From Cyanobacteria bacterium P01_F01_bin.150 (GTDB lineage Bacteria > Cyanobacteriota > Cyanobacteriia > CAKZMO01): a stretch of 64,000 bases of DNA. Below are positions 1-35,307 of the stretch, piece by piece. Position 1 is the stretch's first letter; the number at the start of each line of letters is the position of its first letter. Below the pieces are notes generated by a model. That model was not told the DNA's origin. It searched no databases and was given only the letters and a program-made list of their open reading frames with translations. The stretch spans positions 11,807 through 75,806 of the forward strand of contig JBCCYL010000025.1 in NCBI GenBank assembly GCA_039189765.1. Reading direction: 5' to 3'. A program made the translations under genes and the position numbers.

Positions 1-248
1 TGGGCACAGAGAGGACTAATCGCCGGATCAATTTCTTGAGCTAACCCCAGCAGGACAATATCCAATTCTGCATTTGACAGACCAAAATGATCCTGGAGCG
101 ACCCCAAGGTTGAGTCCCTGGGCCAATCTATCGGTCCTAGCTTCAATGGGGTCTGATGCTCTTGAAAATAAATAAGGGATTCTTTAATGCGCTGGATGCC
201 CTGTTGGAGGACCTGATGATTGTTTTTCTGCCAGCTTGAGTTCGACAT
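1..248 (-). CDS. Afp15/Pvc15-like eCIS AAA+ ATPase, N-terminal part (runs off window start; not in ORF track)
   Basis: Manual translation from ATG at 248: MSNSSWQKNNHQVLQQGIQRIKE...LQDHFGLSNAELDIVLLGLAQEIDPAISPLCA. This aligns by eye with the N-terminus of 7092..9116 (SWQQANQQYL...LCDVFDLSTFERDILLLSAGMELDATIMSLCA). Confidence 0.8.
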   Translation of the reverse strand, partial: MSNSSWQKNNHQVLQQGIQRIKESLIYFQEHQTPLKLGPIDWPRDSTLGSLQDHFGLSNAELDIVLLGLAQEIDPAISPLCA

Positions 249-255
249 ACATGTA

Positions 256-295
256 TTCGTGCAGATTATTTCGTGCAGATTATTTCGTCTAGATT
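256..295. repeat. 14-bp tandem repeat (TTCGTGCAGATTAT x2 plus a degenerate third copy) in a divergent promoter
   Basis: Copies at 256-269, 270-283 and 284-295. Confidence 0.85.
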
Positions 296-438
296 GAGCG
301 CTGCCGTTTGTTCTAGGGTACGTCAGGTGCTAGGGAAACAGAAATTAGACCTTAGTGGGTTTTAGGTGCATTTAGCCTGTGTTATCCCAGTAAGTAGAGA
401 CGCTGGCAACGCCACACTTGCTACAATGGGAGATATTG

Positions 439-3072
439 ATGAGACGCAAACGGACCCGTGAATCCAACTTCCAAGCCTCTAGACTGCAATCATCCATTCA
501 ACGCCAACCCCAGAAGCAACACCCTACCGCCCAACCGGAATTACATCAGCAAGAGCAAGTCTTGACTCCCTCTGAACCTACACCATTAGAGCAGGCAGGA
601 AATGTTCTGAATCGAGTGTCCGAGCAACCCAGCGACACTGGCGCTCTTACCCCAGGCCAGTTAGGTGTCCAAGCCCAACTCACCGTTGGTCCGGCCAACG
701 ATCCGTATGAACAGGAAGCGGATCGGGTCGCAGCTCAGGTGGTGAGCAACATTAATCAACCAGCCAGTCAGGCAGAAAGCCAGGCAGCCAGGCAGGCAGA
801 AAGATCGTCCATAAATCAACCCATCCAGCGCGAGACAGACACGACCGATGAGGATGTGCAACGCAAACCTCTGGATGCCATTCAGCAGGGGCATGTTCAA
901 GCAAACCCTGTTCAATATAATTTTCTTCAGCGATCAACAAACGTGTCGCCTTATTCCGGGCCAGTGTCTGCGGATTTTGAACGGAATTTAAACCAAGCTC
1001 GCAGCGGTGGTCAACCCTTGGCTCCCAATTTACAGCAAAAAATGGGTAACGCCATGGGAGCCGACTTTAGCGGGGTGCGGGTGCATACTGACAACACGTC
1101 CGATCGCCTCAACCACACAATCCAGGCCAAAGCGTTTACCACGGGGCAGGATGTATTTTTCAAGCAAGGAGCCTACAATCCCAACTCTAGAGGGGGGCAG
1201 GAATTGATTGCCCATGAGTTGACCCACGTGGTGCAACAAAAAGGAGATACGGTTCAACGGCATACCGTTCAGCCCAACACCATTCAGCGGACTTTTGTGC
1301 TTAATCAGAGTGACGAAGCCCCCATTGATAGGCACTTTAAGGGGCATGGTACCGATGAGGATAAGGCAAAAAAGAAGGCAGAGAGGAAAAACTGGGCCAC
1401 ATTTATAAATAGATTGGAAGCCTGTTTTACTGGCGATGATGACAGCCCTCCTGATGATCTACGAGCTAGCCTCATCTATAATGCGATCGCAAGATATGAA
1501 AAAGATCCTCCGGCACTCACCCCGCAAAGGCTATATAGAAAGATAAAAGAAAATTTCGGCCAAGACGAAAAAGCCCTGCAGGAAAATTTACATGATGAAG
1601 CTGCGGCGACACCTGATGAACAAACCGCTCGCAATTTAACGAAATTATGTGCAGTTGCCTTGCAAGAATATAAACGTTTTGGCGAAATCACAGGAGAGTT
1701 AGCGGCATTGGGAGGAAAGCGAGACGAGGATCGAAAAGCTATTTTTCGAGCATTTCCAGGCATCAAGGGCATGGAACGGGCTGCGTTTAAGGCTGTGATC
1801 AAGAAAGGCGGAAATGCTAACCTGCTAACGGATATTTTAGCTAGCTCTATTGTTTACGATGATATTGAAGACTGTTGGAAAGGAGCTGAAAAAATAAAGG
1901 ACTGGGCCGCCAGTAATGCTGAAACCCATCAGGTTTCAATGTTTAAAAATAGGTTCAAAGAGGGAAAGCAAAAGGATGGCGAACTGCCTGCAGCCAGCTA
2001 TCGAGATATGCTAATTAACTTTACGATGCCGTCTGGAAATATGATCGAGATTCAACTACACGTCAAAGGATTATTAGACAAGAAGTCAGACGGCCATAAG
2101 GATTATGAAAACCAAAGAAATGTGGCTGAACCCTTAGCCTTTGCCCAACAATATATTCACCGATTTAAAGCACATTGGAACAGTCTTAAACATGATCCTG
2201 TTTATGGACAAAGTACCGTTCGCCTTATTTCAAGTCGCTTGCAAAAATTATCTGATGCAATCATTAATGATGGCCAACATGGCACTATAGATTCCAACAA
2301 GGCAGCAGCGCTAGAAGCAGAAGCAAACCAAATTCCTCAAGCTCTTTTACCTTTTCCAAAAGGAGATTCAGTTAATCTTTTCTTTCTTTTATGGGTAACG
2401 AATAAAGCGGAAGTGGAAGCAGCGGGGGCAGAAGTCATTCGCTTGGTTGAGAGTAGTGTTGTTGCTCAAAATGAGATTTATAACCAAGCATGGGGAGATG
2501 AACAACAGAAAATGATAGCCCAAGGCAACTACACTGCTGACAATATAGATGAACAATTAATTAAAAAAATTCAAGCTGTAGATATTCCTGTGGCAACTAA
2601 ACCAAATAGCCAAGATCCAATTGAGAAAAGTGTTAATATCAACGCTGCCTATAACCACCACTTTAACGCTGGCGGTCGTTTATTAAAACTTCACGGACCA
2701 ATGTACGAAGAGGCTAAAACCTTTGTTGACGCAAAAGTTGCAATGCGTAAAGATCTCTTGGCCTCGCCCAAATCTGCGGCTCGCATGGTAAGGGATCTGG
2801 CACGGGAAAATGATGCCTACTCAGGAGGTCTTGCTCCTGCTATCAAGAGAAGGCAATCCAGACATGATGTGGAAGATGGCAGAAATGATGCCTACTGGGC
2901 TCCCAGGGAAAAGAAAAAAGGAGGAGGTGCAAAGGCAGCAGTCGTTGATCAAAGTGACTCATCAGCAACGGAGATGGACCAACAGGATCTGGGGAACAAT
3001 AATCGCCAAAGAAAAGTTAGATTTGCGGATGAGCCGCCTGCTAAGGTTCCCCAGGATGACGCCCAGGACTAA
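439..3072 (+). CDS. DUF4157 (eCIS core domain) protein with RelA/SpoT-like nucleotidyltransferase domain; putative eCIS effector
   Basis: QAQLTVGPANDPYEQEADRVA motif. DUF4157 spans GQPL...DFSGVRVHT...AKAFTTGQDVFF...LIAHELTHVVQQ. RSH-like motifs: KGMERAAFK, DILASSIV, KNRF, SYRD, EIQLH, GHKDYE. Start at ATG 439 follows GGAG (the ORF track starts at TTG 418). Confidence 0.8.
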   Translation: MRRKRTRESNFQASRLQSSIQRQPQKQHPTAQPELHQQEQVLTPSEPTPLEQAGNVLNRVSEQPSDTGALTPGQLGVQAQLTVGPANDPYEQEADRVAAQVVSNINQPASQAESQAARQAERSSINQPIQRETDTTDEDVQRKPLDAIQQGHVQANPVQYNFLQRSTNVSPYSGPVSADFERNLNQARSGGQPLAPNLQQKMGNAMGADFSGVRVHTDNTSDRLNHTIQAKAFTTGQDVFFKQGAYNPNSRGGQELIAHELTHVVQQKGDTVQRHTVQPNTIQRTFVLNQSDEAPIDRHFKGHGTDEDKAKKKAERKNWATFINRLEACFTGDDDSPPDDLRASLIYNAIARYEKDPPALTPQRLYRKIKENFGQDEKALQENLHDEAAATPDEQTARNLTKLCAVALQEYKRFGEITGELAALGGKRDEDRKAIFRAFPGIKGMERAAFKAVIKKGGNANLLTDILASSIVYDDIEDCWKGAEKIKDWAASNAETHQVSMFKNRFKEGKQKDGELPAASYRDMLINFTMPSGNMIEIQLHVKGLLDKKSDGHKDYENQRNVAEPLAFAQQYIHRFKAHWNSLKHDPVYGQSTVRLISSRLQKLSDAIINDGQHGTIDSNKAAALEAEANQIPQALLPFPKGDSVNLFFLLWVTNKAEVEAAGAEVIRLVESSVVAQNEIYNQAWGDEQQKMIAQGNYTADNIDEQLIKKIQAVDIPVATKPNSQDPIEKSVNINAAYNHHFNAGGRLLKLHGPMYEEAKTFVDAKVAMRKDLLASPKSAARMVRDLARENDAYSGGLAPAIKRRQSRHDVEDGRNDAYWAPREKKKGGGAKAAVVDQSDSSATEMDQQDLGNNNRQRKVRFADEPPAKVPQDDAQD

Positions 3073-3210
3073 GGGCATTTGGGGAAACATACCCAGGTTG
3101 CGTAGGATGGGCAAAACGAGCGTGGCCCATCAGCCAGACGTTCTGATGGGCATTTCTTTGCGTCCTTTACCCATCCTGCTGCCGGTATTTTATTTCTTTG
3201 CGAGTCCCTT
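3071..3210. mobile_element. Degenerate MITE-like element with internal GTAGGATGGGCAAA palindrome
   Basis: Homologous over its whole length to 6894-7038; right end GGTATTTTATTTCTTTGCGAGTCCCTT. Confidence 0.75.
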
Positions 3211-4854
3211 CGCTAATTCTGTCCTTAAAGCCTGGGCCGCTGCAAATTCAGGATAAACCGATAGAGCCTTCTCAATCGATGCCCAAGCCTTGTCCAATGC
3301 CTCCAGTGCTACATAGCACTTGGCTTGGTTGTAGCGTATGCCCGGATCTTCACCGTAAAACTGGAGAGAAATATCCAAGTAGGCGATCGCCTCGTGATAA
3401 TCGCCCATCTTGTACAAGAGCATGGCACAGTGGAACGGCAGGTCTTGCTCTTCGCCCATAAAGTAATAGGTTTGCCAAATATTCTGAATGGCGTGGTAAA
3501 CCTCTTGACACAGTCGCGCAGGAGCAGATTCTACCTGGCACATCAGGTTATCAAAACATCCTAAAAAGAGTTGGTGGTCCCAGTGGCTTAAGCGGAGATA
3601 GGCCAGGATCTGTTTGAGGGTAAGGGTATCGAAATGGGGTTCGATTGCCTTTTTAAGCGCAAAAAAGTCGTCTGGACTGGCCTGTAAAATCTCATCCCAG
3701 TAAGCTTGATGGGTTTCAATATAAGTTTCAATACAGTTCTCCCAATCATCCTCGCTAGAATCACCATCGCTACAATCGCCAAACAAAAATCCGCAGATGG
3801 TAATGCTGCGACGCAGATGGTCAGGCATTAAGGCCTGTCCTCCCTGGGCAATCGTATACTGGGCGATCGCATGATAGTTCACCATTAGCGAAAATGCACC
3901 TCCATGGGATGCAGGTTCCGGGACCCCTTGTCGCTGTAAGTCGGCGTCACAGGTATGTCCCTTGTCGCTGGACAGCAGTAAGAGGCGATCGCCACTCAAT
4001 TTTCGCAGGGCATTGATGGCGGCTAACCCCACTGTGGGAAATAGGATATGGGTATGATGGAAGCCAGTTTGATAGGTGTGCAATAGCTGATTCATCACCG
4101 GGTCATCGTAATACCCAGCCGCTGTGGCCTTGGCATTGGTGTAGGTGGTGTGGAGCTGGCTAAGCTTAGGATTGGAAGCGATCGCTGTGGATGAGCGAGG
4201 GGTAAGGGTAACTAGGGTTTCAAATAATGTACTGTCTTCGACATAGAATAAATCGTTGGGAAGCGAATCAAAAAAGTAGTTGGCAATAGCAATCAGTGGA
4301 TTGTGGAGAGTATCGACCGATAAGGTTTCTCCCTGGTTGAGGAGGGTAAGGTTAGGGGACTGCTGAGTTTGAGACGTTTCACAATCGGCCACATCAAATC
4401 GAGCAAAATCAAGTAGCCCCTCGTCAACAAAGGGGCGTAGAAACGGATGGGCCTGCCAAAAATCCAGATTTTTTTGAGCCAAGTCGGTCATTACATAGGT
4501 CACCGGAATGTGCCGAAGAACGGAGTGGGGATACCACTCCCAAAACTGTTTAAGGAAGTGATAGGCAAACCGTCCCGATCCGGCTCCCAGTTCAATAATA
4601 TAAACGGGCTGATTTAGGTCCAGGGCTTGGAGGCGATCGCAATCGCGCAAATATCCCCGAATTACCTTGCCGTAGGCATTGGCGATAAAGGGATTGCTGG
4701 TGACATAGTGGGGAACGCTGCCCCCATTCCAGGCTTGGATACCTTGCTGGTTAAAGTAGTCACGCTGCAATTGCCAGAGGAGCGATCGCGAAAATCGCTG
4801 ACGCTTCTCTAGATGATTTGATTCGATTGGCGTAATAGCTAGTGGGATAGACAT
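3190..4854 (-). CDS. SAM-dependent methyltransferase (MidA/NDUFAF7-like) with C-terminal TPRs
   Basis: Motif I YIIELGAGSGRFA; IANYFFDSLP; TPR-like helices (AMLLYKMGDYHEAIAYL, YNQAKCYVALE). Confidence 0.8.
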   Translation of the reverse strand: MSIPLAITPIESNHLEKRQRFSRSLLWQLQRDYFNQQGIQAWNGGSVPHYVTSNPFIANAYGKVIRGYLRDCDRLQALDLNQPVYIIELGAGSGRFAYHFLKQFWEWYPHSVLRHIPVTYVMTDLAQKNLDFWQAHPFLRPFVDEGLLDFARFDVADCETSQTQQSPNLTLLNQGETLSVDTLHNPLIAIANYFFDSLPNDLFYVEDSTLFETLVTLTPRSSTAIASNPKLSQLHTTYTNAKATAAGYYDDPVMNQLLHTYQTGFHHTHILFPTVGLAAINALRKLSGDRLLLLSSDKGHTCDADLQRQGVPEPASHGGAFSLMVNYHAIAQYTIAQGGQALMPDHLRRSITICGFLFGDCSDGDSSEDDWENCIETYIETHQAYWDEILQASPDDFFALKKAIEPHFDTLTLKQILAYLRLSHWDHQLFLGCFDNLMCQVESAPARLCQEVYHAIQNIWQTYYFMGEEQDLPFHCAMLLYKMGDYHEAIAYLDISLQFYGEDPGIRYNQAKCYVALEALDKAWASIEKALSVYPEFAAAQALRTELAKGLAKK

Positions 4855-5065
4855 CAGCTTCTACCCGTTTCTTCCGTTAATGAACTATTTGAGGAATTCT
4901 CTTATGTTTTTAGGTTGATAACGACACGCTATTGTCGTAACCCTAACACCAATAAAAGTTGAATTGTATCCGACTTTTGTCGGACCTAAGCATATAAATT
5001 GGTGCCCATAGTTAACCAGATTAGCTTTTTACAGCCAAAACTGGAAGCCTGACAGATCATCGGGT

Positions 5066-6850: not shown

Positions 6851-6893
6851 GGCTGGTTACTCGTTGTCTCGGCTGCTGGCTGGTTTGCTAACT

Positions 6894-7038
6894 AAGGGAC
6901 TTGCGAGAAAATAACATACCAATTTGGCGTAGGATGGGCAAAACGAATGTGTGCCCATCAGCTCAACGTTTTGATGGGCACGTTCTATCGGCCTTTGCCC
7001 ATCCTACGTCCGGTATCTTATTTCTTTGCAAGTCCCTA
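6894..7038. mobile_element. MITE-like element: imperfect terminal inverted repeats enclosing an 81-bp REPIN-like palindrome
   Basis: Ends AGGGACTTGCGAGAAAATAACATACC and GGTATCTTATTTCTTTGCAAGTCCCT. Inner CGTAGGATGGGCAAA...TTTGCCCATCCTACG at 6928-7008. Confidence 0.8.
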
Positions 7039-7091
7039 ATGTCCCAATGGAAGAGTAGGTCAATGCTTATTCGTTGGAATAAATCGCTCCA

Positions 7092-9116
7092 TCATACCCA
7101 ACCCTTGATTTCTTGATCTGTCAGACTCTTCTCCAGCTTGGCATATTCACTTCGAGCTGCAATCAGTAAATGCCTCATCTGTACAGGCTCATCGTCATCT
7201 GCGGCCAGAAAAGCCGCATTGAGGGCAATGTTGCGGATACTGCCTCCGGCAACCTGTAGGCGAGCTAGCCGTTCCATACTTAGGTCTTGGGTGGGGGTTT
7301 CCTTCGGAAAAATTCGTTTCCAGATTTCTAACCGCTGGCTTACATCTGGGAAGGTAAACTGCACTACAAACCGAATCCGCCGCATAAAGGCACTATCCAG
7401 CGATCCTTTTAGGTTTGTCGTTAGAATCGCTAAGCCTTGATAAGCCTCCATTCGCTGCAGCAAATAGCTGACTTCAATATTAGCGTGACGATCGTGGGAG
7501 TCTTTCACATCACTACGTTTACCAAATAGAGCATCAGCTTCATCAAACAGCAGCACCGCTCCGCCGCCCTCTGCGGCATCAAATACCCGCCTCAGGTTTT
7601 TCTCTGTCTCACCAATGTATTTACTGATCACTGCACTTAGATCAATCCGATATAAATCCAGGTTTAGCGACTGGGCTAAAATTTCCGCCGCCGTGGTTTT
7701 TCCGGTACCACTGGGTCCAGCAAATAGAGCACTAATACCTAACCCCCGCATATTTTTGTTAGAGAATCCCCACTGTTCATAGACCTTTACCCGCTGTCTT
7801 ACCTGAGCTGCAACGGTTTTTAGGGTTTGAAACTGAGCGTCTGGCAAGACCAAATCATCCCAGGTTGCTTTTACTGTAATCCGCTGGGCAAGATTTTCCA
7901 TTTGAGGCTGAGCTTGGGTTCGACAACCCTGCCAAAGTTGTTTTTTTAGATCTGAAGGAGATATCTCTTGATCTACTTGACCTAGCACATGGTTGCATAC
8001 CGCATCAATTTCTGGACGAGTCAAATTAAACTGGGTGACTAATGGGGGAATGATAGAAGGCATTTCTAAGCCAATGGATGCTAAATGGCGTTCCCATTGG
8101 GACTGTTGCTCCTGATGGCTTGGTTTGCCGATGTCTATATTGACAATTGCTCGGGATGGCGAATTAATGCGATCGCGCCCACTAATCATCAGCGGACTTT
8201 GAATCTGCTCCAACAGACGATCAATAGATTCACCATGCTGGGACAGATTGGTTTCCGTACAGTCGAGCATCAAAGCGCTGCGGTTAAGAATTGCTTCTCG
8301 CTCCCAAATTTGTAAAAACTGGCTCAAGTCCTTTACTGTCTTGGGCACATCCTGTCCAGCCAGACGATGGAGAGTCAACTCTAAGGCCTGACAGGTATGC
8401 CAAGCAATGTCTGTTTGGCTAGTCGGATTTGAACCCGTCAACTGGAGTATGGGTAAGGTGTCGCGATCGCTAGCCTTTGCCCAAGTATTGGCAAGTTCCA
8501 GGGCCTGCTGACGATGGGATGGCACTAAAGTCCCATGGCCTTGCACCGGTTTGACAAAATCCTGGAGCAAATCGTCAAGCTGCTGAATGCCCACCAGATA
8601 GTGCAAAGTACGTTCGTTGATCTGTATGGGCCTCTGCATCAGTCCCATGCCCTTACTCAGTTCAATTAACCGCCAACGACGCAGGGGCGCAAGGGAGGTT
8701 AATGCACTCCAGTGAGCATTATCAAATAAGCTTAGGGCTAGACCCAAGGTAGGAAAAGCTTTTTGGGGATCTCCCTGGGCAAGAGCGCACAGAGACATGA
8801 TGGTGGCATCCAATTCCATCCCTGCACTGAGAAGCAAAATATCCCGCTCAAAGGTGGAGAGATCAAAAACGTCACATAGCTGAATCAATGCTGCTGTGGA
8901 GCCCCAGGCCTCTGCCATTATTGTCTCCGCCTCGGCCATGGTTTCGTATGGATCTAAAGGCAGATTTGATTCGACCTCAGATACTCCGTTGGCTTTCTCT
9001 TGGAGGCGCTGTTTTACCAGAGCCAGAGCCCCTAAGAGATACTGTTGATTCGCCTGTTGCCAGCTTGGGGGGGATGTTGTGGGCTGTTCGGAGGGTGGGG
9101 TTGCGGTGAGAGCCAT
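7092..9116 (-). CDS. Afp15/Pvc15-like eCIS AAA+ ATPase
   Basis: Walker A GPSGTGKT, SKYIGETEKNL, Walker B LLFDEAD, family motif DRHANIEVSYLLQRME, AFMRR. Confidence 0.92.
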   Translation of the reverse strand: MALTATPPSEQPTTSPPSWQQANQQYLLGALALVKQRLQEKANGVSEVESNLPLDPYETMAEAETIMAEAWGSTAALIQLCDVFDLSTFERDILLLSAGMELDATIMSLCALAQGDPQKAFPTLGLALSLFDNAHWSALTSLAPLRRWRLIELSKGMGLMQRPIQINERTLHYLVGIQQLDDLLQDFVKPVQGHGTLVPSHRQQALELANTWAKASDRDTLPILQLTGSNPTSQTDIAWHTCQALELTLHRLAGQDVPKTVKDLSQFLQIWEREAILNRSALMLDCTETNLSQHGESIDRLLEQIQSPLMISGRDRINSPSRAIVNIDIGKPSHQEQQSQWERHLASIGLEMPSIIPPLVTQFNLTRPEIDAVCNHVLGQVDQEISPSDLKKQLWQGCRTQAQPQMENLAQRITVKATWDDLVLPDAQFQTLKTVAAQVRQRVKVYEQWGFSNKNMRGLGISALFAGPSGTGKTTAAEILAQSLNLDLYRIDLSAVISKYIGETEKNLRRVFDAAEGGGAVLLFDEADALFGKRSDVKDSHDRHANIEVSYLLQRMEAYQGLAILTTNLKGSLDSAFMRRIRFVVQFTFPDVSQRLEIWKRIFPKETPTQDLSMERLARLQVAGGSIRNIALNAAFLAADDDEPVQMRHLLIAARSEYAKLEKSLTDQEIKGWV

Positions 9117-9360
9117 GGGGATTTTGGATTTTGGATTTTAGATTTTAGATTCCTGGCTTGGCAGGGGTTGAGGAGTTATGGGGTTGGGGAGTTGGAGCGT
9201 TAGATCCCAGGGTTCTTGATAGATGATTCTGTAATTCTAAAGAGTTTTGATCAGAACCCTGGGATCTGGGCGACGGGGAGCTAGGGCGTTAGATCCCAGG
9301 GTTCTTGATAGATGATTCTGTAATTCTAAAGAGTTTTGATTAAAACCCTGTGATCTGGGC
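9117..9360. repeat. Heptamer repeats (TTTTGGA/TTTTAGA) plus a tandemly duplicated ~66-bp palindrome AGATCCCAGGGTTCT...AGAACCCTGGGATCT
   Basis: Palindromes at 9202-9267 and 9291-9356 (89-bp period); heptamers at 9121-9150. Confidence 0.85.
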
Positions 9361-9380
9361 GATGAGGGAACGGAATCTGA

Positions 9381-10838: not shown

Positions 10839-11560
10839 TGCACCAACCCCAGCCGTAGCGATCGCACGATGGCCTGGGCTCGACTTTTAACTCCCAGCTT
10901 TTCAAAAATTGAGGTGAAGTGAGATTTAACGGTGGCCACTGAAATGTAGAGTTCGTTGGCAATATCTTCGTTGGATTTTCCCCGGGATAAAAGATTAAGC
11001 AGCTCGCGCTCGCGCTTGCTTAGCCGTAGCTGCTTGCACTTTTCTGTTGCCTGCTTGGCATGGGATTGAAACAGATAAAAGAAGGTATTAACCATTTCCT
11101 GGCTAAGGTAAACATCTCCACGCTCAATGGTATGAATAGCAGTTAAGAGTTCCATGGATAGACGGTCTTTGCTGAGATACCCAGAGGCTCCAGCCTGCAT
11201 GCCTGAGAATAAATAGGCGGGTTTGAGTTCTTCGGAAATTAGTAAGACTTTGGGCGGTTTGTCGAGCTGCTGGAGTTGCTTCAAGGCATCTAGGGTGGTG
11301 TCCCAGTTCTGGTCAACGTCCACATCGATAATCATCAGGCTGGGATGTTGTTTTTGGGCCAGGTGGAGGGCTTGGGCACCGGAGGCCACTTCACCGACAA
11401 CGACGTATTGAGCTGCCCCATGTTTACTGTAGAAAGAGAGGAGCGATCGCAACCCTTGACGAAACTCTTGATTGCTATCGGCCAGCATTACAGAGCATTG
11501 TAAATCGGCACATGAATTTACAGTGTTTTGAGGCTGCAACAAAATTTGACTTGTTATCAT
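10835..11560 (-). CDS. NarL/LuxR-family response regulator
   Basis: REC domain (VVGEVASG, IIDVD, GASGYLSK) and LuxR HTH (LSKRERELL...NEDIANELYISVATVKSH). Overlaps the DUF4255 gene by 4 nt (ATGA). Confidence 0.92.
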   Translation of the reverse strand: MITSQILLQPQNTVNSCADLQCSVMLADSNQEFRQGLRSLLSFYSKHGAAQYVVVGEVASGAQALHLAQKQHPSLMIIDVDVDQNWDTTLDALKQLQQLDKPPKVLLISEELKPAYLFSGMQAGASGYLSKDRLSMELLTAIHTIERGDVYLSQEMVNTFFYLFQSHAKQATEKCKQLRLSKRERELLNLLSRGKSNEDIANELYISVATVKSHFTSIFEKLGVKSRAQAIVRSLRLGLVQ

Positions 11561-11628
11561 ATTCTGCTCCTAAAATATCGCTGTCAGTTTTTTATTGGCA
11601 ATTCAATTATTCGCAATCAAAGTTTGAC

Positions 11629-12318: not shown

Positions 12319-14070
12319 ATGGCAAGGTTGGATTATTTTGCGCCTGGGGTTTACGTCGAAGAAGTGAATCGCGGTAGCCGCCCAATTGAGGGGTTGCCCA
12401 CTGCGATTGCTGGCTTCGTTGGCTTTACCGAAGATGTACGAGGCGGTGCTGAACTATATCGCCCTATGTTGGTGACGACATGGAATCAGTATTTAGAATA
12501 CTTTGGTAAACCCAACTCAGATGGATTTACGGATTTTGGGGCCTACCTGCCCTTTTCCGTATATGGCTGGTTTTTAAATGGTGGTGGACGATGCTGGATT
12601 ACCAGTATTGGTACCCGACTTCCAGGTACGGCAACGCCTGATATTACCGAAAGTGGAACGGATTTGAGCAATCGACGCGATCGCCCGACTCTCCGATTTT
12701 CCCTCGCTTCCGGCGCAGCATCTCTGTTGGGAGCCTCGTCCAATGGAGGGGGGCAAGCGATTCAGGTGCAGGTGTTAAATGGGGTCCCTAAAAGTGCGAT
12801 CGCCACCGCTGTTGTAGAGGTTGAAAACGAGGATGGCAGCGTTAGTCGTCCTCCATCTCCTCCATCCCATACGCCACATATGCCGATCGCCATCAACACT
12901 GGAGAGTTCTTTACAGTGGTGGTGCGTCAAGGGGATGAGACCCTGGAACGTTTCGAACATTTGACGATGAATGCCCACGTTAATCCCAACGTGGCAGATT
13001 ATGTGACAACGGCATTAGCCGAGTCAGACTTTGTCGTTGCGACGGATCTGGCTAATACCGGCAGTATCCTAGCCCGTCGCCCTGCCAATGGCCTGTACGA
13101 AATTAGTCCCCCCCCCGTAGTCTCAAGCCGTGAAGAACTACCAGGGCATTTGGAAGGGATTGGCGATGATCGTACCGGAATTCGAGGGCTGTTTGAAATT
13201 GATGAAGTCACGGTGATTGCCTGTCCCGACCTGATGCGAGTGTACGAAGAGGGGCTGATGGATATTGATCAGGTCCACTCGGTGATGGATTTGATGTTGG
13301 GGATGTGTGAAGCAGCGGCAGCTGGAGATATTCCTAATCCCCCCAATCGGATGATTGTGTTTGATCCTCCTCCAGATCGGGTCAAACCCCAGGATGTGAG
13401 CACCTGGTTAACAGAAGATTTTAACCGTCGCTCTCAATTTGCGGCCCTTTATTACCCTTGGATCGAGGTCCCGAATCCTCGCAATGGTGGCCGCCCGATT
13501 GCGGTTCCTCCCTGCGGCCATGTGATGGGCGTTTGGGCACGGACGGATGAAACCCGAGGGGTTCATAAGGCTCCGGCTAATGAGGTGCCTAGAGGCGTAA
13601 CTGGCTTGGCCTATGACTGTAACTTCCGCGAGCAAGAGCTGCTTAATCCTATCGGGATTAACTGTCTGCGGCCCTTCCCCAATCGTGGTATTCGGATTTG
13701 GGGCGCTCGCACATTAGTCGAACCTGATATTACCGAATGGCGCTATATCAACGTTCGACGGCTGATGAGCTATATCGAGAAATCCATTGAAGTCGGCACG
13801 CAGTGGGTTGTCTTTGAACCCAACGATGAAGATCTATGGCAGCGGGTCAAGCGGGTGGTCAGTAATTTCCTGACCGATTTGTGGCGACAAGGGGCACTGA
13901 TTGGTAGCAGTCCAGAGCAGGCTTTCTATGTGAAATGCGATGGTGAACTCAACACCCCAGACACTATGATTCTGGGTCGCTTATACATTGAAGTCGGCAT
14001 TGCTCCAGTCCGGCCAGCGGAATTTGTGATCTTCCGCGTTAGCCAGTGGAGTGGTCAAGACGAGGGTTAA
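12319..14070 (+). CDS. Contractile phage tail sheath protein (eCIS/tCIS)
   Basis: APGVYVEE, AALYYPWI, VPPCGHVMGVWARTD...GVHKAPAN, LNPIGINCLR, IWGARTL, WRYINVRR, VFEPND, PAEFVIFR. Confidence 0.96.
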   Translation: MARLDYFAPGVYVEEVNRGSRPIEGLPTAIAGFVGFTEDVRGGAELYRPMLVTTWNQYLEYFGKPNSDGFTDFGAYLPFSVYGWFLNGGGRCWITSIGTRLPGTATPDITESGTDLSNRRDRPTLRFSLASGAASLLGASSNGGGQAIQVQVLNGVPKSAIATAVVEVENEDGSVSRPPSPPSHTPHMPIAINTGEFFTVVVRQGDETLERFEHLTMNAHVNPNVADYVTTALAESDFVVATDLANTGSILARRPANGLYEISPPPVVSSREELPGHLEGIGDDRTGIRGLFEIDEVTVIACPDLMRVYEEGLMDIDQVHSVMDLMLGMCEAAAAGDIPNPPNRMIVFDPPPDRVKPQDVSTWLTEDFNRRSQFAALYYPWIEVPNPRNGGRPIAVPPCGHVMGVWARTDETRGVHKAPANEVPRGVTGLAYDCNFREQELLNPIGINCLRPFPNRGIRIWGARTLVEPDITEWRYINVRRLMSYIEKSIEVGTQWVVFEPNDEDLWQRVKRVVSNFLTDLWRQGALIGSSPEQAFYVKCDGELNTPDTMILGRLYIEVGIAPVRPAEFVIFRVSQWSGQDEG

Positions 14071-14107
14071 GGGATGCTTTAATCTTTTAATGTGAACCAA
14101 AACTGAC

Positions 14108-14155
14108 GGTATTGTGGGCACCTCGCGTCCATAATACCCGCCTAAAGTTGATACC
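14108..14155 (+). promoter_or_regulatory. Hairpin plus CGCCTAAAGTTGATACC box upstream of the first tube gene
   Basis: GGTATTGTGG...CCATAATACC stem immediately followed by the same box as at 12055. Confidence 0.5.
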
Positions 14156-14177
14156 CAATCCTATATGAGGTAATACA

Positions 14178-14723
14178 ATGGCCCAACCCATTTTTACTAC
14201 AACTGCGTCAAGTTACTATATTGAATTTGATGGCATTACTGAAGCAGAAATTAAAAGCATGGCCCAGCTTTCCTATGAAGCAAAAGTGACGGGGAATGCT
14301 AAACCGATCGCGTCCACTAAATCTGGAAAAACCTCCCGACAGACCACCTCTGGGGGATATGACTCCAGCCCCTCCATGACATTGGAAGTCTATATGTGTG
14401 ATGACCCCAGAAGTGCCAGTGCCTATTTGTATAACTGGTTTCAAGAATGCCTTCCCCCCAGTGATGGTGGCCGAGGCAATTGGGCTAACAATCGTAAAAC
14501 AGGCTCTGTTGTCGTGTATGACCCCGGAGGGGATGAAGTCCTGCGATGGAACCTATACCGAGCCTGGATCAAGAAATATTCGATCTCTGACCCAGATGTC
14601 ACCTCCCAAGACTTAGCCGTTGAGACCTATGAGCTAACCGCAGAACACATTGACAAAGTGTTATCGATTTCCAGTGCATCCACCAGCGCCTCTACCCAGC
14701 AGGCCCAGTTTGCGTCAATTTAG
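14178..14723 (+). CDS. Phage tail tube protein (T4 gp19-like)
   Basis: YYIEFDG, LYNWF, RKTGSVVVYD...VLRWNLYRAWIKKY, LAVETYEL; directly after the sheath gene. Confidence 0.85.
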   Translation: MAQPIFTTTASSYYIEFDGITEAEIKSMAQLSYEAKVTGNAKPIASTKSGKTSRQTTSGGYDSSPSMTLEVYMCDDPRSASAYLYNWFQECLPPSDGGRGNWANNRKTGSVVVYDPGGDEVLRWNLYRAWIKKYSISDPDVTSQDLAVETYELTAEHIDKVLSISSASTSASTQQAQFASI

Positions 14724-14748
14724 TCCTTCTTAACCCATTACAACTATT

Positions 14749-15273
14749 ATGGTCACTGCAGCAACTGATTTTGCCTACAGCACCAGTCGGATGGAGTACC
14801 TCACTACCAGCCGATTTTATTTCGAGTACGATGCCACCACTCGCCTGCTAATTTCTAAATGTAGTGGAATTTCTATCTCCATTGATCCCGCAGCGGAGGG
14901 ACAGCCCATCGGCGTAGGCAAGGGAATTGTCACCCAAACCCAAACGACCCCTGCAGGCGTCTCCTATGAAAATATGACCCTGGAATTTGTCTCCACCCGT
15001 GAAAATGACATTTTGCTGAACTGGTACTTGGATTGCCATCCCAAGGCCGCAGTTGGGGGTGGACGACCCACAATGAACAATCGCTTTTCCGGTGGTTTGG
15101 TGATTTATAAACAAAGTGGTTTTGAAGGGGCACGATGGTCGATTCGCGATGCCATGCCTGCAAAATACACTACCACTCAGGTGCAGAGTGAAAGTACCGA
15201 TTTGTTCAAAGAAACCATCGAAATTGCCCATGCTGGACTAATTCGGGTTCCGACGATGGGTACCCAACTTTAG
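14749..15273 (+). CDS. Phage tail tube protein (T4 gp19-like)
   Basis: SRFYFE, CSGI, YENMTL, LLNWY, GGLVIY...ARWSIRDAMPAKY, ETIEIAHAG. Confidence 0.85.
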   Translation: MVTAATDFAYSTSRMEYLTTSRFYFEYDATTRLLISKCSGISISIDPAAEGQPIGVGKGIVTQTQTTPAGVSYENMTLEFVSTRENDILLNWYLDCHPKAAVGGGRPTMNNRFSGGLVIYKQSGFEGARWSIRDAMPAKYTTTQVQSESTDLFKETIEIAHAGLIRVPTMGTQL

Positions 15274-15300
15274 GAGTTTGCAGAGTGATGCAGTTAGCGA

Positions 15301-15603
15301 GACCCACCCCTAGCCCCTCCCAGGAGGGGAACGTATCATTAGCGAGAGTGTTTGATGGACATTTGCGGTGAATATTCGGTGGTCCATCTTTGCCAATGTC
15401 CAGTTCCCCCTCTTGAGAGGGGGCTAGGGGGTGTGTTTGGTGGTCAATCTCTGCCAATGTCCAGTTCCCTGAGAAGAGGCTAGGAGGTGTATTTATCCTG
15501 GTGCCCAGACTCTGGCTGAGTACCTTTGAGAAGACTCTGGCTCCGCTGCATTGCCTGAGCCAGAGTCTCAGGCGGGCATTCTCAGATAGACACTGGGAAC
15601 GAG
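15301..15603. repeat. Cluster of palindromic dispersed repeats between tube genes
   Basis: CCCACCCCTAGCCCCTCC...GAGGGGGCTAGGGG inverted repeat; direct duplication of GGTGGTC(C/A)ATCT(T/C)TGCCAATGTCCAGTTCCC; GACTCTGGCT...AGCCAGAGTC...CTGGGAACGAG element. Confidence 0.75.
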
Positions 15604-15656
15604 GTAGCGAGCGTCAACACTATAAAGAACTGAACGCTAAAGGAACCTGAACCATT

Positions 15657-16184
15657 ATGGTTTATGCCCAATCTGCCTTCCAAGGGGAAAGCAGCACCAC
15701 GACGTATTATGAATACTTAACGGCATCTCGCTTTTATGTAGAACTGCACTTAAATGGCAGCGTTGCCGATGTGGATGGCCTTTTTATGGAATGTAAGGGC
15801 CTGAAATATTACCAGGACGTTATTGAATTTGCCGAATCGTTTCCAGAGAGTTGGGGCCGCAACGGTGCCTCGGTGGGACGGATCCATCGCAGCAAAATTC
15901 CGGGTCTTGAAAAAATAGACAATATTAGCTTAAGACGCGGTATGAATGCCTCTGAAACCCTGTGGCAGTGGATTGAAACGGCGCAGCAGGGCGGCTGGAG
16001 TCAAGCCTGTAAGGATGGATCGCTGACCCTGTACCGTCAGGATGGTACCACTGGGGCACGGTTTCAGTTTGAGGCTGCGTGGCCCGTTAGCTATACCGTT
16101 TCTGACAGCATGGTATCTGGCACAGATCTGACCTTTGAAGATTTGGAAATTGCCTGTGAAACCCTGACGCGGATGAAGCTCTAA
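15657..16184 (+). CDS. Phage tail tube protein (T4 gp19-like, Afp5-type)
   Basis: RFYVEL, FMECKGL, KIPG...NISLRRG, LWQW, DGSLTL...FEAAWPVSY, FEDLEIACE. Confidence 0.9.
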   Translation: MVYAQSAFQGESSTTTYYEYLTASRFYVELHLNGSVADVDGLFMECKGLKYYQDVIEFAESFPESWGRNGASVGRIHRSKIPGLEKIDNISLRRGMNASETLWQWIETAQQGGWSQACKDGSLTLYRQDGTTGARFQFEAAWPVSYTVSDSMVSGTDLTFEDLEIACETLTRMKL

Positions 16185-32064: not shown

Positions 32065-32077
32065 GGGCAACGGAGCA

Positions 32078-35300: not shown

Positions 35301-35307
35301 GGATTAT

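What the first reader, a model, noticed from the sequence alone, without database searches (positions are those of the whole stretch)
439..3072. DUF4157 eCIS cargo carrying a RelA/SpoT (toxSAS/Tas1-like) domain with no adjacent antitoxin
Seen at about 1762-2110: KxxxRxxxK, DILASSIV, KNRF, SYRD, EIQLH and GHKDYE in the order expected for the RSH synthetase fold. The DNA after the DUF4157 part is visibly more AT-rich. Known: T6SS Tas1 and toxSAS enzymes kill by making (p)ppApp/(p)ppGpp or by pyrophosphorylating tRNA. No HD hydrolase or small immunity gene follows. Inference: an injected alarmone or tRNA-modifying toxin delivered by a cyanobacterial contractile injection system, a combination I do not recognise as characterised.
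Basis: partly seen in the sequence, partly recalled or inferred. Interest (0 to 1): 0.85.

Follow-up and report, generated by a model that had tools for sequence, protein, structure and literature searches.

The report
Injection-system cargo with alarmone-synthetase toxin domain
A cyanobacterial gene next to phage-tail-like injection machinery encodes a three-part cargo protein whose end is a divergent relative of the bacterial killing enzyme Tas1; papers have listed this kind of fusion, but nobody has tested one.

Summary
ORF 439-3072 (+) encodes 877 aa. It has a very hydrophilic N-terminal region, a DUF4157/eCIS_core domain (aa 193-269, E 1.9e-31) and a C-terminal RelA/SpoT-type synthetase domain (core aa 431-575).

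- **Own sequence:** the RSH domain is too divergent for Pfam (13.7 bits, cutoff 27).
- **Family:** phmmer finds 301 relatives. A profile of 42 relatives without DUF4157 scores the window protein at E 2.3e-30. The 51-sequence profile hits Tas1 (6ox6) at E 7e-24.
- **Fold:** AlphaFold2 models match only RSH synthetases in Foldseek; SaEAS is best (E 1.6e-7, TM 0.53-0.55).
- **Catalytic positions:** the family's invariant Lys, Asp, Tyr and Glu positions are kept. The acceptor loop is unusual, with a 7-residue insert and Gly to Ser.
- **Immunity:** no immunity gene or HD hydrolase was found.
- **Host and context:** HIP1 counts (78 against 0.7 expected) show a cyanobacterium. Sheath, tube, cap and AAA+ genes lie 4-13 kb away; no baseplate or spike gene is in the window.
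- **Novelty:** an mBio 2025 survey already lists seven DUF4157-annotated Apk1/Tas1 homologues, two of them cyanobacterial, none tested.

This is a new member of a known kind. Product, target and self-protection remain open.

The parts
439..3072 (+). Whole gene: 877-aa DUF4157 cargo protein with a C-terminal Tas1/Apk1-like RSH synthetase domain (P0001)
   Evidence: ORF list, translation, GGGAGA 7 nt before the ATG at 439
439..1014 (+). N-terminal region, aa 1-192: very hydrophilic, Q/S/P/A-rich, basic at the extreme N-terminus. Inferred loading signal.
   Evidence: Kyte-Doolittle sum of the first 50 aa is -77.9; net charge +5 in aa 1-21; 70% polar or disorder-promoting residues. The AlgoCIS cargo NTD is required for loading (preprint 10.64898/2026.05.27.728243, passages). 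No disorder predictor was run.
1015..1245 (+). DUF4157 / eCIS_core domain, aa 193-269, with intact HExxH (HELTH, aa 259-263, nt 1213-1227)
   Evidence: PF13699 E 1.9e-31, 108.5 bits; motif position
1336..1728 (+). Helical lead-in, aa 300-430. Its last ~40 residues form the helices that precede the synthetase core in the family.
   Evidence: AF2 helices; pLDDT 41-66 for aa 300-390, then 83-92. Aligned with relatives in A1 and A3.
1729..2163 (+). RSH (toxSYNTH) catalytic core, aa 431-575: five beta-strands with helices. Carries K443, R447, K451, D465, K503, R505, Y521, R522, D523, E537, Q539, H541, H553, Y556.
   Evidence: Leave-out HMM E 2.3e-30; conserved columns; AF2 pLDDT 83-96; Foldseek hits only RSH synthetases; Pfam RelA_SpoT on its own sequence only 13.7 bits, E 0.078
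1975..2007 (+). Unusual acceptor (G-) loop: 7-residue insert DGELPAA (aa 513-519), then SYRD where 49 of 51 family members have GYRD
   Evidence: Column counts on A1; pLDDT dips to 61-66 here; role of the G-loop Tyr from PMC11782079 (passages)
2164..2718 (+). C-terminal helical extension, aa 576-760. A low-confidence helical insert (aa ~576-665) is followed by the family's C-terminal helix (NEIYNQAW, aa 678-685). Function unknown.
   Evidence: AF2 pLDDT 52-75, then 84-95; shared with P0002 and P0003; P0011 matches aa 571-680; no Pfam hit at E <= 10; lowest GC3 in the gene, 0.27
2719..3069 (+). Charged, alanine-rich tail, aa 761-877, probably disordered
   Evidence: Composition; not covered by any relative or 37
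7092..9116 (-). AAA+ ATPase with winged-helix N-terminal domains (Afp15/Pvc15/Alg15-type by architecture). Inferred cargo loader.
   Evidence: PF00004 E 1.4e-26 and PF22977 E 2.1e-20. Equating this architecture with Afp15/Pvc15/Alg15 is recalled, not tested. Alg15 and Pvc15 load cargo (passages; search listing and abstract of PMC11495950).
9381..10838 (-). Pvc16_N (tail terminator / cap) protein of the contractile injection system
   Evidence: PF14065 E 1.3e-40
12319..16184 (+). Sheath gene (12319-14070) and three tube-family genes (14178-14723, 14749-15273, 15657-16184)
   Evidence: Phage_sheath_1C and Phage_sheath_1; Phage_T4_gp19 three times; weak CIS1/CIS5 family matches
3..248 (-). N-terminus of a second AAA+ (WHD) ATPase paralogue, transcribed divergently from the toxin gene and cut by the window edge
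   Evidence: BLASTP to the 7092-9116 protein: 33% identity over 94 columns, E 2e-9; PF22977 E 6e-4

Best explanation
The gene encodes a modular cargo or effector protein of a cyanobacterial contractile injection system.

**Shown**
- The domain order is: hydrophilic basic N-terminal region, DUF4157/eCIS_core domain with HExxH, then a C-terminal domain with the RelA/SpoT synthetase fold.
- The C-terminal domain belongs to the Tas1/Apk1-like family of polymorphic 'exported alarmone synthetase' toxins.
- The positions that are invariant or nearly so across the family alignment are kept.

**Inferred**
- The N-terminal region is recognised by the neighbouring AAA+ ATPase, and the protein is threaded into the tube lumen.
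- After sheath contraction the C-terminal domain refolds in the target cell. There it transfers pyrophosphate from ATP to the 3'-OH of a purine nucleotide, making (p)ppApp and/or (p)ppGpp.
- If it turns over as fast as its characterised relatives, it drains ATP and blocks purine synthesis and growth.
- My split for the product: about 45% mainly (p)ppApp as in Tas1, about 35% (p)ppGpp or both, about 10% tRNA, about 10% inactive or something else.
- No immunity gene is needed, because the toxin is kept unfolded or sequestered in the particle, or is made only in cells that are about to lyse.
For: **Family and fold**
- DUF4157 matches at E 1.9e-31.
- phmmer of aa 300-760 finds 301 relatives at E <= 1e-3, with a shared core at aa 439-564.
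- I gave 60 of the 149 listed relatives to Pfam. The 7 dropped from the first 68 were very long or repetitive. RelA_SpoT matched 18 of 60 at E <= 1e-3, and 6 reached the 27-bit cutoff. eCIS_core matched 7 of 60. Others are fused to VgrG, PT-HINT, MuF, Mu portal or polyvalent-protein modules, the pattern of a polymorphic toxin domain.
- The leave-out HMM scores P0001 at E 2.3e-30.
- The family profile hits Tas1 6ox6_A at E 7.2e-24, YwaC at 1.2e-6 and RelA at 8e-6.
- AF2 models: pLDDT 74.9 and pTM 0.71 for aa 300-760; pLDDT 84.7 and pTM 0.78 for aa 390-600.
- Foldseek gives 63 PDB matches at E <= 1e-3, and all 27 listed rows are RSH enzymes. SaEAS 8vx3_A is best (E 1.6e-7, TMq 0.53, TMt 0.55); Tas1 scores E 1.4e-5.

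**Active site**
- 23 of 26 columns conserved at 80% or more are kept, including invariant K443, K451, D465, D523 and E537 and the G-loop Tyr Y521.

**Context**
- AAA+, Pvc16_N, sheath and three tube genes lie 4-13 kb away. Two further DUF4157 proteins are in the window.
- The first 50 residues are very hydrophilic and basic, the pattern Danov et al. describe for eCIS signals (PMC11297309, passages).

**Literature**
- DUF4157 proteins were found by mass spectrometry in Anabaena CIS particles (PMC8894136, passages) and in the AlgoCIS tube lumen (preprint, passages).
- Apk1 homologues without an immunity gene exist and are toxic in the cytoplasm (PMC12691689, abstract and sections 3, 5, 9).
- Most validated eCIS toxins lack an immunity gene (PMC8213781, passages).
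Against: - On its own sequence the domain fails Pfam's RelA_SpoT cutoff (13.7 bits against 27, E 0.078).
- phmmer of aa 301-877 against PDB finds no RSH enzyme.
- A profile of the window protein plus its two closest relatives finds only RelA, at E 0.23. The link to Tas1 therefore runs through the wider family.
- Three conserved positions differ: A468 (Arg in 41 of 51), G509 (Pro in 41 of 51) and S520 (Gly in 49 of 51). A 7-residue insert sits just before the acceptor-binding Tyr. Activity or substrate could be altered.
- No spike, baseplate or tail-fibre family was found among the 29 ORFs scanned in the 64-kb window.
- The one related genomic locus recovered (L001, Ca. Uabimicrobium amorphum) has the same fusion but no CIS gene within 8 kb.
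- DUF4157 itself was dispensable for loading in AlgoCIS, so its presence marks cargo only by association.
- Characterised homologues make different products (PMC12691689), so the product cannot be read from homology.
Confidence: 0.62

Rival explanations
1. The domain is a tRNA 3'-CCA pyrophosphokinase of the FaRel2/CapRel/PhRel type. The injected toxin would then stop translation rather than deplete ATP.
For: Foldseek also lists CapRel: 7ztb E 1.3e-3 and 9.6e-5, TMq 0.48. The acceptor loop is atypical, with an insert plus Gly to Ser. The helical lead-in before the core (aa ~390-430) could in principle provide an RNA-binding surface, as the N-terminal helices do in FaRel2 (PMC11782079, passages).
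Against: The family profile finds Tas1 at 88 bits but neither CapRel nor FaRel2 among the 17 PDB sequences at E <= 1. CapRel ranks below SaEAS, RelP/RelQ and Rel in both fold searches. There are no PADLOC hits. No pZFD-type antitoxin or fused antitoxin domain was detected. The family's fusion partners (VgrG, PT-HINT, MuF) are those of the Apk1/Apk2 nucleotide pyrophosphokinases (PMC12691689).
Confidence: 0.1
2. The protein acts in the producer, not in a target. With no immunity gene, its induction would shut down or kill the producing cell. That could be part of the stress-induced lysis or ghost-cell programme that releases or exposes CIS particles.
For: There is no immunity gene or hydrolase nearby. 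Geller et al. raise this possibility for eCIS toxins that lack immunity genes (PMC8213781, Discussion passages). Anabaena CIS fire only on lysis or ghost-cell formation and affect ghost-cell membrane integrity (PMC8894136, passages). The gene is its own transcription unit, divergent from an ATPase paralogue.
Against: The NTD-DUF4157-CTD layout is that of cargo shown to sit in the tube lumen. The same toxin domain is fused elsewhere to delivery modules that export it (VgrG, PT-HINT, LXG, Sec, PMC12691689). There is no direct evidence of any kind here.
Confidence: 0.13
3. The RSH domain is a degenerate, catalytically dead remnant, kept as a scaffold or decaying.
For: Three conserved positions are changed and there is an insert at the acceptor loop. 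The sequence is sub-threshold for Pfam. The absence of any immunity gene would be explained trivially.
Against: The ORF is intact over 877 codons. All five invariant family positions and 23 of 26 conserved positions are kept. At position 468, Gly or Ala occurs in 10 of 51 family members, and the column aligns with the Gly of the canonical DxxG motif in YwaC. The core is modelled with pLDDT 83-96.
Confidence: 0.1

Closest known systems
Tas1 / Apk1 (Pseudomonas aeruginosa T6SS effector, (p)ppApp synthetase; PDB 6ox6)
   Same: Nearest solved relative by sequence: the family profile scores E 7.2e-24 (88 bits) over the whole synthetase domain. It has the same fold (Foldseek E 1.4e-5, TMt 0.51). It sits in the same position, as the C-terminal toxin module of a protein carried by a contractile phage-tail-like machine.
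   Different: Tas1 is carried on a T6SS spike through PAAR/Rhs-type modules and is encoded next to its immunity protein Tis1 (PMC12691689, PMC11782079, passages). Here the carrier module is NTD + DUF4157 and no immunity gene is adjacent. The window protein has SYRD with a 7-residue insert where Tas1 has GYSG in the alignment. Its product is untested.
Exported alarmone synthetases (EAS: SaEAS, VpEAS, AaEAS), including the seven DUF4157-annotated sequences in PMC12691689
   Same: Homologues of Apk1 attached to an export module, often with no immunity gene. SaEAS (8vx3) is the best structural match (E 1.6e-7, TMq 0.53). That paper explicitly lists DUF4157 as one of the export-associated domains. 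Its jackhmmer table names two cyanobacterial entries, UBA9273 (a fragment) and Spirulina sp. SIO3F2.
   Different: The window protein's own strings SYRDMLINF and DILASSIVY do not occur in the six supplementary files held (long files may have been cut when stored). None of the DUF4157 members was tested experimentally. The characterised EAS use Sec or T7SS, not a CIS. SaEAS is a 200-residue secreted enzyme; this is an 877-residue protein with about 300 extra C-terminal residues.
AlgoCIS cargo Cgo1/Cgo2 and Anabaena tCIS proteins Alr3311/Alr3312 (DUF4157 cargo)
   Same: Disordered or hydrophilic NTD, then DUF4157, then a variable C-terminal domain, encoded beside CIS genes that include an AAA+ ATPase.
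   Different: Their C-terminal domains are not reported as RSH enzymes in the passages read. Loading of the window protein has not been shown. The window's NTD shows no clear similarity to those of the two other DUF4157 proteins in the window.
MuF/Apk2 phage polymorphic toxins with adenosine 3'-pyrophosphokinase domains
   Same: The same toxin family joined to another phage-derived packaging module. Relatives P0010 and P0037 carry Phage_Mu_F and P0036 carries Portal_Mu.
   Different: Those toxins are packaged in capsids of temperate phages and are encoded with immunity genes (PMC12691689 passages; PMC12226406, search listing and abstract only).
toxSAS of toxin-antitoxin and defence systems (FaRel, FaRel2, CapRel)
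   Same: RSH toxSYNTH fold. CapRel appears in both fold searches.
   Different: No sequence-profile match at E <= 1, no antitoxin gene or fused pZFD, and no PADLOC hit. The genomic context is a secretion machine, not a TA pair.

Membership tests
RelA/SpoT homologue synthetase domain (Pfam PF04607; SYNTH/toxSYNTH fold) | Matches the Pfam RelA_SpoT model at or above its gathering score (27 bits) | tested here: not met
   13.7 bits, E 0.078, seen only when aa 401-587 are scanned alone. There is no hit for the whole protein. 6 of 60 relatives reach the cutoff.
RelA/SpoT homologue synthetase domain (Pfam PF04607; SYNTH/toxSYNTH fold) | Nucleotidyltransferase-type alpha/beta fold of RSH synthetases | tested here: met
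   The AF2 model of aa 390-600 has pLDDT 84.7. Foldseek against PDB gives 63 matches at E <= 1e-3; all 27 listed rows are RSH enzymes, the best at TMq 0.53 / TMt 0.55. The longer model gives the same result.
RelA/SpoT homologue synthetase domain (Pfam PF04607; SYNTH/toxSYNTH fold) | Catalytic and substrate-binding residues kept: basic residues for the donor ATP, the Mg-binding Asp, the G-loop Tyr and the catalytic Glu of the ExQ motif | tested here: met
   K443, R447, K451, D465, Y521 and E537-x-Q539 are kept. All five invariant family columns are kept. The alignments put D465 on the Asp of YwaC's DIAG. Assigning roles to these residues rests on recalled RSH literature and on PMC11782079 for the G-loop Tyr. 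The Gly before the Tyr is Ser here.
RelA/SpoT homologue synthetase domain (Pfam PF04607; SYNTH/toxSYNTH fold) | Pyrophosphate transfer from ATP to a 3'-OH acceptor | not testable with these tools
   Needs an enzyme assay.
Tas1/Apk1-like exported alarmone synthetase (polymorphic toxin) family | Significant sequence homology to Apk1/Tas1 | tested here: met
   Met through the family. P0001 against 42 family members scores E 2.3e-30, and the family profile against Tas1 scores E 7.2e-24. It is not met directly: phmmer of aa 301-877 finds no Tas1, and the 3-sequence profile finds none.
Tas1/Apk1-like exported alarmone synthetase (polymorphic toxin) family | Joined to an export or delivery module | tested here: met
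   An N-terminal DUF4157 domain. Relatives carry VgrG, PT-HINT, MuF and Mu portal modules.
Tas1/Apk1-like exported alarmone synthetase (polymorphic toxin) family | Cognate Tis1-like immunity protein or Aph1/SAH hydrolase encoded alongside. This defines toxSAS-type members such as Apk1 and Apk2, not the Sec-type EAS. | tested here: not met
   No same-strand ORF of 50 aa or more begins within about 250 nt after the stop, other than one lying wholly inside the convergent minus-strand gene. There is no HD-domain hit in the 29 ORFs scanned. A Tis1-like protein has no model in the libraries used, so one elsewhere in the genome cannot be excluded.
Tas1/Apk1-like exported alarmone synthetase (polymorphic toxin) family | Product is (p)ppApp and/or (p)ppGpp | not testable with these tools
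   Characterised homologues differ in product (PMC12691689, abstract and section 7).
DUF4157-type CIS cargo (Cgo1/Cgo2-like) | DUF4157/eCIS_core domain between a disordered NTD and a variable C-terminal domain | tested here: met
   PF13699 E 1.9e-31 at aa 193-269. The NTD has mean hydropathy -1.07 and 70% polar residues. Disorder is inferred from composition only.
DUF4157-type CIS cargo (Cgo1/Cgo2-like) | Encoded in or beside a complete contractile injection system locus | tested here: inconclusive
   AAA+, Pvc16_N, sheath, three tube genes and a chaperone-like gene are present. No spike, gp25, baseplate-J, PAAR or fibre family was found in the window. A second ATPase paralogue runs off the left edge.
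DUF4157-type CIS cargo (Cgo1/Cgo2-like) | Physically present in particles; loading depends on the NTD and the AAA+ ATPase | not testable with these tools
   Needs mass spectrometry or cryo-EM of purified particles.
tRNA-pyrophosphorylating toxSAS (FaRel2/CapRel/PhRel) | Closer to these enzymes than to nucleotide pyrophosphokinases, with a pZFD-type antitoxin | tested here: not met
   They are absent from the 17 PDB profile hits at E <= 1. CapRel is only a lower-ranked fold match. There is no PADLOC hit and no antitoxin gene.

The most novel reading that the evidence does not exclude
The remodelled acceptor loop (a 7-residue insert, and Ser in place of the family's Gly before the base-stacking Tyr) and the lack of any immunity gene may mean this is not a Tas1 copy. 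It could be a CIS-loaded pyrophosphokinase with a different acceptor or a different target. One version is aimed at eukaryotic grazers of cyanobacteria. Another is used on the producer itself to drive the ghost-cell or lysis programme that exposes thylakoid-anchored CIS. Either way, it would give a molecular activity to a cyanobacterial CIS cargo, which the tCIS paper read here did not have.
Probability: 0.15. Interest if true: 0.75.

Novelty: new member of a known kind. Interest (0 to 1): 0.45.

Why it matters
The DUF4157 proteins of the one cyanobacterial contractile injection system read about here (Anabaena tCIS, PMC8894136) have no assigned activity, and that system's target is unknown. 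A DUF4157 protein whose C-terminal domain can be assigned with confidence to the Tas1/Apk1-like alarmone synthetases gives such a system a testable biochemical output: nucleotide pools or tRNA ends in target or producer cells.

It is also a concrete case for the open question of how eCIS producers survive antibacterial toxins without an immunity gene.

Expectations should be modest. The DUF4157-synthetase fusion was catalogued in 2025, the enzyme family is well studied, and nothing here shows activity, loading or a target.

Tried and rejected
**Direct searches with the window protein alone gave little**
- Pfam on the whole protein finds only DUF4157.
- NCBIfam, PHROGs and PADLOC find nothing for the C-terminal part.
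- phmmer against PDB gives only a chance nanobody hit at E 0.083.
- The word-indexed homologue search returned only the protein itself.
- A profile of the three closest sequences (A3) did not reach Tas1; RelA scored E 0.23.

**Related loci**
- With A3 it returned one locus, L001. The window's own genome did not turn up in the species-representative collection.
- The listing of cluster members could not be run because the database was switched off. Source names and accessions of relatives P0002-P0150 are therefore unknown.

**Other negative or weak results**
- megablast of window 1-12000 against plasmids: no match.
- Rfam on the whole window: no family, so no alarmone riboswitch.
- The promoter/terminator scan gave numbers equal to chance, 8 against 7.2 and 6 against 6.1, so no transcription signals are claimed.
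- Alignment of the three DUF4157 N-terminal regions in the window showed no convincing shared loading motif beyond a basic start, and it misaligned the second protein.
- HIP1 depletion in the toxin gene alone is not significant (1 against 3.2 expected, P 0.17). For both toxin genes together P is 0.029, chosen after looking. I do not rest a horizontal-transfer claim on it.
- The FastTree of 155 domain copies has weak backbone support (65 of 152 branches open). It is used only to say that DUF4157-linked domains cluster but are not one clade.

**Not run**
- Complex prediction, because no binding claim is made.
- bioRxiv supplements were closed.

Full report
**What is in the sequence**

One ORF runs from 418/439 to 3072 on the + strand. 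The ATG at 439 sits 7 nt after GGGAGA and gives 877 residues (P0001). Pfam finds one domain in the whole protein, eCIS_core (the former DUF4157, PF13699), at aa 193-269 with E 1.9e-31. Its HExxH motif is intact (HELTH, aa 259-263).

- KGMERAAFK, aa 443-451
- DILASSIV, aa 465-472
- KNRF, aa 503-506
- SYRD, aa 520-523
- EIQLH, aa 537-541
- GHKDYE, aa 552-557

Together they span nt 1765-2109.

The compositional step is real. GC is 0.53 and GC3 is 0.47-0.62 for aa 1-269. For aa 300-760, GC is 0.39-0.45 and GC3 is 0.27-0.40. The second DUF4157 gene of the window (5066-6850, minus strand) shows the same step, with GC3 of 0.47 falling to 0.34. The CIS structural genes have GC3 of 0.47-0.57. Several unrelated genes in the window sit at 0.36-0.39, so only aa 576-760 (0.27) is outside the local range.

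**Is the C-terminal part a RelA/SpoT-type synthetase?**

On its own sequence the evidence is weak:
- Pfam RelA_SpoT appears only when aa 401-587 are scanned alone, at 13.7 bits (cutoff 27) and E 0.078.
- phmmer of aa 301-877 against all PDB sequences finds no RSH enzyme.
- ESM Atlas look-alikes pointed to clusters that partly carry RelA_SpoT, at scores of 0.88-0.89. These are leads only.

The exhaustive phmmer search of aa 300-760 against 1.84 billion representatives settled the matter. It found 301 proteins at E <= 1e-3 and 13 at E <= 1e-10, sharing a core at aa 439-564.

I gave 60 of the 149 listed relatives to Pfam. From the first 68 I left out P0006, P0009, P0021, P0032, P0052, P0054 and P0059 as very long or repetitive. 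The results:
- 18 of 60 match RelA_SpoT at E <= 1e-3, and 6 reach the curated cutoff.
- 7 of 60 carry eCIS_core.
- Others carry VgrG (P0035), PT-HINT (P0048), Phage_Mu_F (P0010, P0037), Portal_Mu (P0036), ART-PolyVal (P0063) or Acb1 + InPase (P0062).

A toxin domain hung on many different delivery modules is the signature of a polymorphic toxin family.

An HMM was built from 42 members without DUF4157. It left out the window protein and its eight closest relatives, seven of which have a Pfam DUF4157 hit, plus P0002. This HMM scores P0001 at 122.7 bits, E 2.3e-30 at a library size of 1.84e9. The 51-sequence profile (A1) hits these PDB entries:
- Tas1, 6ox6_A: E 7.2e-24, 88 bits
- YwaC: 1.2e-6
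- RelA: 8e-6
- SaSAS/SaEAS: 3e-4

In all, 16 of the 17 PDB sequences at E <= 1 are RSH synthetases. A profile of only the window protein, P0002 and P0003 does not reach Tas1 (RelA at E 0.23). The link is therefore transitive, but each step is strong.

**Structure**

AlphaFold2 with A1 gave pLDDT 74.9 and pTM 0.71 for aa 300-760, with 83-96 across the core. A crop of aa 390-600 gave pLDDT 84.7 and pTM 0.78.

Foldseek against the PDB returned RSH enzymes only. With the long model, 7 matches had E <= 1e-3 and all 26 listed rows were RSH. With the crop, 63 matches had E <= 1e-3 and all 27 listed rows were RSH:
- SaEAS 8vx3_A is the top hit: E 1.6e-7, TMq 0.53, TMt 0.55.
- RelP/RelQ, Rel and SpoT follow.
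- Tas1 6ox6_A: E 1.4e-5, TMq 0.47.
- CapRel 7ztb: E 9.6e-5.

**Is the active site intact?**

Of the 26 alignment columns conserved at 80% or more, the window protein keeps 23. These include all five invariant ones (K443, K451, D465, D523, E537) and R447, K503, R505, Y521, R522, N527, Q539, H541, H553, Y556 and R560.

It differs at three positions:
- **A468**, where 41 of 51 have Arg. In the alignment this column falls on the Gly of the canonical DxxG of YwaC, and 10 of 51 family members have Gly or Ala there.
- **G509**, where 41 of 51 have Pro.
- **S520**, where 49 of 51 have Gly.

S520 directly precedes the Tyr that stacks on the acceptor base in RSH enzymes (PMC11782079, passages). It follows a 7-residue insert, DGELPAA, which almost no relative has and where model confidence dips. 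I read the enzyme as probably active. Its acceptor site is unusual enough that the product should not be assumed.

**Which subfamily, and what product?**

By sequence the family is nearest to Tas1/Apk1, the T6SS (p)ppApp synthetase. CapRel and FaRel2, the tRNA pyrophosphokinases, are not among the profile hits at E <= 1. PADLOC finds nothing.

The mBio 2025 paper PMC12691689 (abstract and sections 3, 5, 7, 9 read) shows that homologues of Apk1 make (p)ppApp, (p)ppGpp or both, and are toxic when they fold in the cytoplasm. I therefore commit to 'nucleotide 3'-pyrophosphokinase that makes (p)ppApp and/or (p)ppGpp' and give the tRNA alternative about 10%.

**Context and delivery**

The window is cyanobacterial. 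The HIP1 octamer occurs 78 times against 0.73 expected (that HIP1 marks cyanobacteria is recalled knowledge). Domains typical of filamentous cyanobacteria abound, including DUF1822, CHAT-CHASE2, DUF928 and Uma2 (their typicality is also recalled).

The gene's neighbours are:
- **Upstream, divergent:** a second AAA+ ATPase paralogue cut by the window edge (3-248, minus strand; E 2e-9 to the ATPase below).
- **Downstream, convergent:** a Methyltransf_28 + TPR gene (3190-4854).
- **On the minus strand after that:** a second DUF4157 protein (5066-6850), an AAA+ ATPase with winged-helix domains (7092-9116), a Pvc16_N cap protein (9381-10838) and a LuxR-type response regulator (10835-11560).
- **On the plus strand:** a sheath gene (12319-14070), three tube paralogues, a tail-assembly-chaperone-like ORF, a 493-aa unknown and a 2401-aa protein with two DUF4157 domains.

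No spike, gp25, baseplate-J, PAAR or fibre family was found among the 29 ORFs scanned. The machine is therefore incomplete within these 64 kb. Its type, extracellular or thylakoid-anchored as in Anabaena (PMC8894136), cannot be decided.

The cargo reading rests on four points:
- The NTD-DUF4157-CTD layout matches AlgoCIS Cgo1 and Cgo2, which sit in the tube lumen and need their disordered NTD and the AAA+ Alg15 for loading (preprint 10.64898/2026.05.27.728243, passages).
- DUF4157 proteins Alr3311 and Alr3312 were found by mass spectrometry in Anabaena particles (PMC8894136, passages).
- The window protein's first 50 residues are extremely hydrophilic and basic (Kyte-Doolittle sum -77.9, +5 charge in aa 1-21).
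- That pattern is the one reported for eCIS signals (PMC11297309, passages).

DUF4157 itself was dispensable for loading in AlgoCIS, so it marks cargo by association only.

**The missing antitoxin**

The only + strand ORF of 50 aa or more beginning within about 250 nt after the stop (3198-3461) lies wholly inside the convergent minus-strand gene. No HD-domain protein is in the window.

The one related genomic locus I could fetch is in Ca. Uabimicrobium amorphum (L001). It encodes a 639-aa DUF4157 + RelA_SpoT protein, has no obvious immunity gene and has no CIS gene within 8 kb.

Lack of an immunity gene is the rule rather than the exception for validated eCIS toxins (PMC8213781, passages) and for Sec-type exported alarmone synthetases (PMC12691689). 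So it is an open question of the field, not an anomaly of this locus. Three explanations are possible and none was tested:
- unfolding and sequestration by the ATPase and tube;
- expression only in cells committed to lysis;
- an Aph1/SAH hydrolase or Tis1-like protein elsewhere in the genome (Aph1 family: PMC10083569, abstract).

**Evolution**

In a FastTree of 155 domain copies the DUF4157-linked domains are clustered (0 of 500 shuffles as low). They still need at least 5 changes on well-supported branches. The window's domain groups with P0003, P0002, P0005, L001 and P0007 at supports of 82-88. The backbone is weak.

This tree, the GC3 step and the low HIP1 count in the two toxin genes (1 in 4.4 kb against 5.4 expected; P 0.029, chosen after looking) all fit exchange of C-terminal toxin cassettes. 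That is an inference, not a demonstration.

**Novelty**

Two full-text searches found one paper that links contractile injection systems with alarmone synthetases, PMC12691689. It reports the DUF4157 domain in seven of 1,369 Apk1 homologues. Its supplementary jackhmmer table names them:
- Cyanobacteria bacterium UBA9273 (a fragment)
- a deltaproteobacterium
- Chitinophaga agri
- a Microscillaceae bacterium
- Deinococcus sp. HMF7620
- Spirulina sp. SIO3F2
- Burkholderia gladioli

None was characterised. The window protein's own strings are not in the six supplementary files held. The two eCIS toxin surveys do not mention ppGpp, ppApp, Tas1 or alarmone in their main texts. Their supplements were not searched.

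The finding is therefore a new, divergent, full-length member of a catalogued but untested class, seen here beside part of its machine. I score interest at 0.45.

Noticed in passing
window 5066-6850 (-): A second DUF4157 protein (594 aa; eCIS_core at aa 109-179, E 4.2e-7). Its C-terminal ~300 residues match no Pfam, NCBIfam, PHROGs or PADLOC family. It shows the same GC3 drop as the first (0.47 to 0.34). Atlas leads are weak: an unnamed cluster at 0.90, TseH-like at 0.78, and DUF2459 by structure at TM 0.37-0.48. It is probably a second, unidentified toxin cargo.
   Followed up: partly
window 18517-25722 (+): A 2401-aa protein with two eCIS_core/DUF4157 domains (E 1.7e-64), directly after the tube genes and a 493-aa unknown. 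It could be a giant cargo or a tape-measure-like component.
   Followed up: no
window 3-248 (-): The N-terminus of a paralogue of the CIS AAA+ ATPase (33% identity over 94 columns, E 2e-9), transcribed divergently from the toxin gene and cut by the window edge. So there are two ATPase paralogues, and possibly a second gene set to the left.
   Followed up: partly
window 256-283 (+): Two exact tandem copies of the 14-nt unit TTCGTGCAGATTAT, in the 190-nt divergent intergenic region between the ATPase paralogue and the toxin gene. This may be a regulator site or chance.
   Followed up: no
whole window; toxin genes 439-3072 and 5066-6850: The HIP1 octamer GCGATCGC occurs 78 times against 0.73 expected. 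The two DUF4157 toxin genes together hold 1 copy against 5.4 expected (P 0.029, chosen after looking), while the neighbouring methyltransferase gene holds 6.
   Followed up: partly
window 7092-30000: The CIS gene set in the window has an ATPase, a cap, a LuxR-type response regulator, a sheath, three tube paralogues and a chaperone-like ORF (phrog_508). It has no recognisable spike, gp25, baseplate-J, PAAR or fibre gene. YbjN-domain (25737-27410) and PBP-like (27283-29988) proteins follow the giant DUF4157 protein.
   Followed up: partly
window 3190-4854 (-): A Methyltransf_28 (putative SAM-dependent methyltransferase) fused to C-terminal TPR repeats. It is convergent with the toxin gene, 118 nt from its stop. 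There is no evidence that it is an immunity factor.
   Followed up: no
window 31057-38370, 38433-46319, 47350-53952, 59965-62563: Other conflict-type or cell-surface genes: a DUF1822 / CHAT-CHASE2 / DUF928 cluster; a CHAT-TPR protein; a 2628-aa two-partner-secretion exoprotein (TPS domain, DUF5649 repeats); a 2200-aa RTX protein with 55 nonapeptide-repeat matches; and a caspase-DnaJ fusion next to an EACC1 (effector-associated constant component) ORF.
   Followed up: no
L001 7065-8984 (+) (NZ_AP019860.1, Candidatus Uabimicrobium amorphum): A planctomycete genome encodes a 639-aa DUF4157 + RelA_SpoT protein of the same subgroup. It has no CIS gene and no obvious immunity gene within 8 kb. Its neighbours are an FHA protein, a Ser/Thr kinase and housekeeping genes.
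   Followed up: partly
proteins P0004, P0006, P0024, P0052, P0059, P0136: Six relatives carry two copies of the Tas1-like domain in one polypeptide. P0006 (3127 aa) also scores as DUF4157-positive with my local HMM.
   Followed up: no
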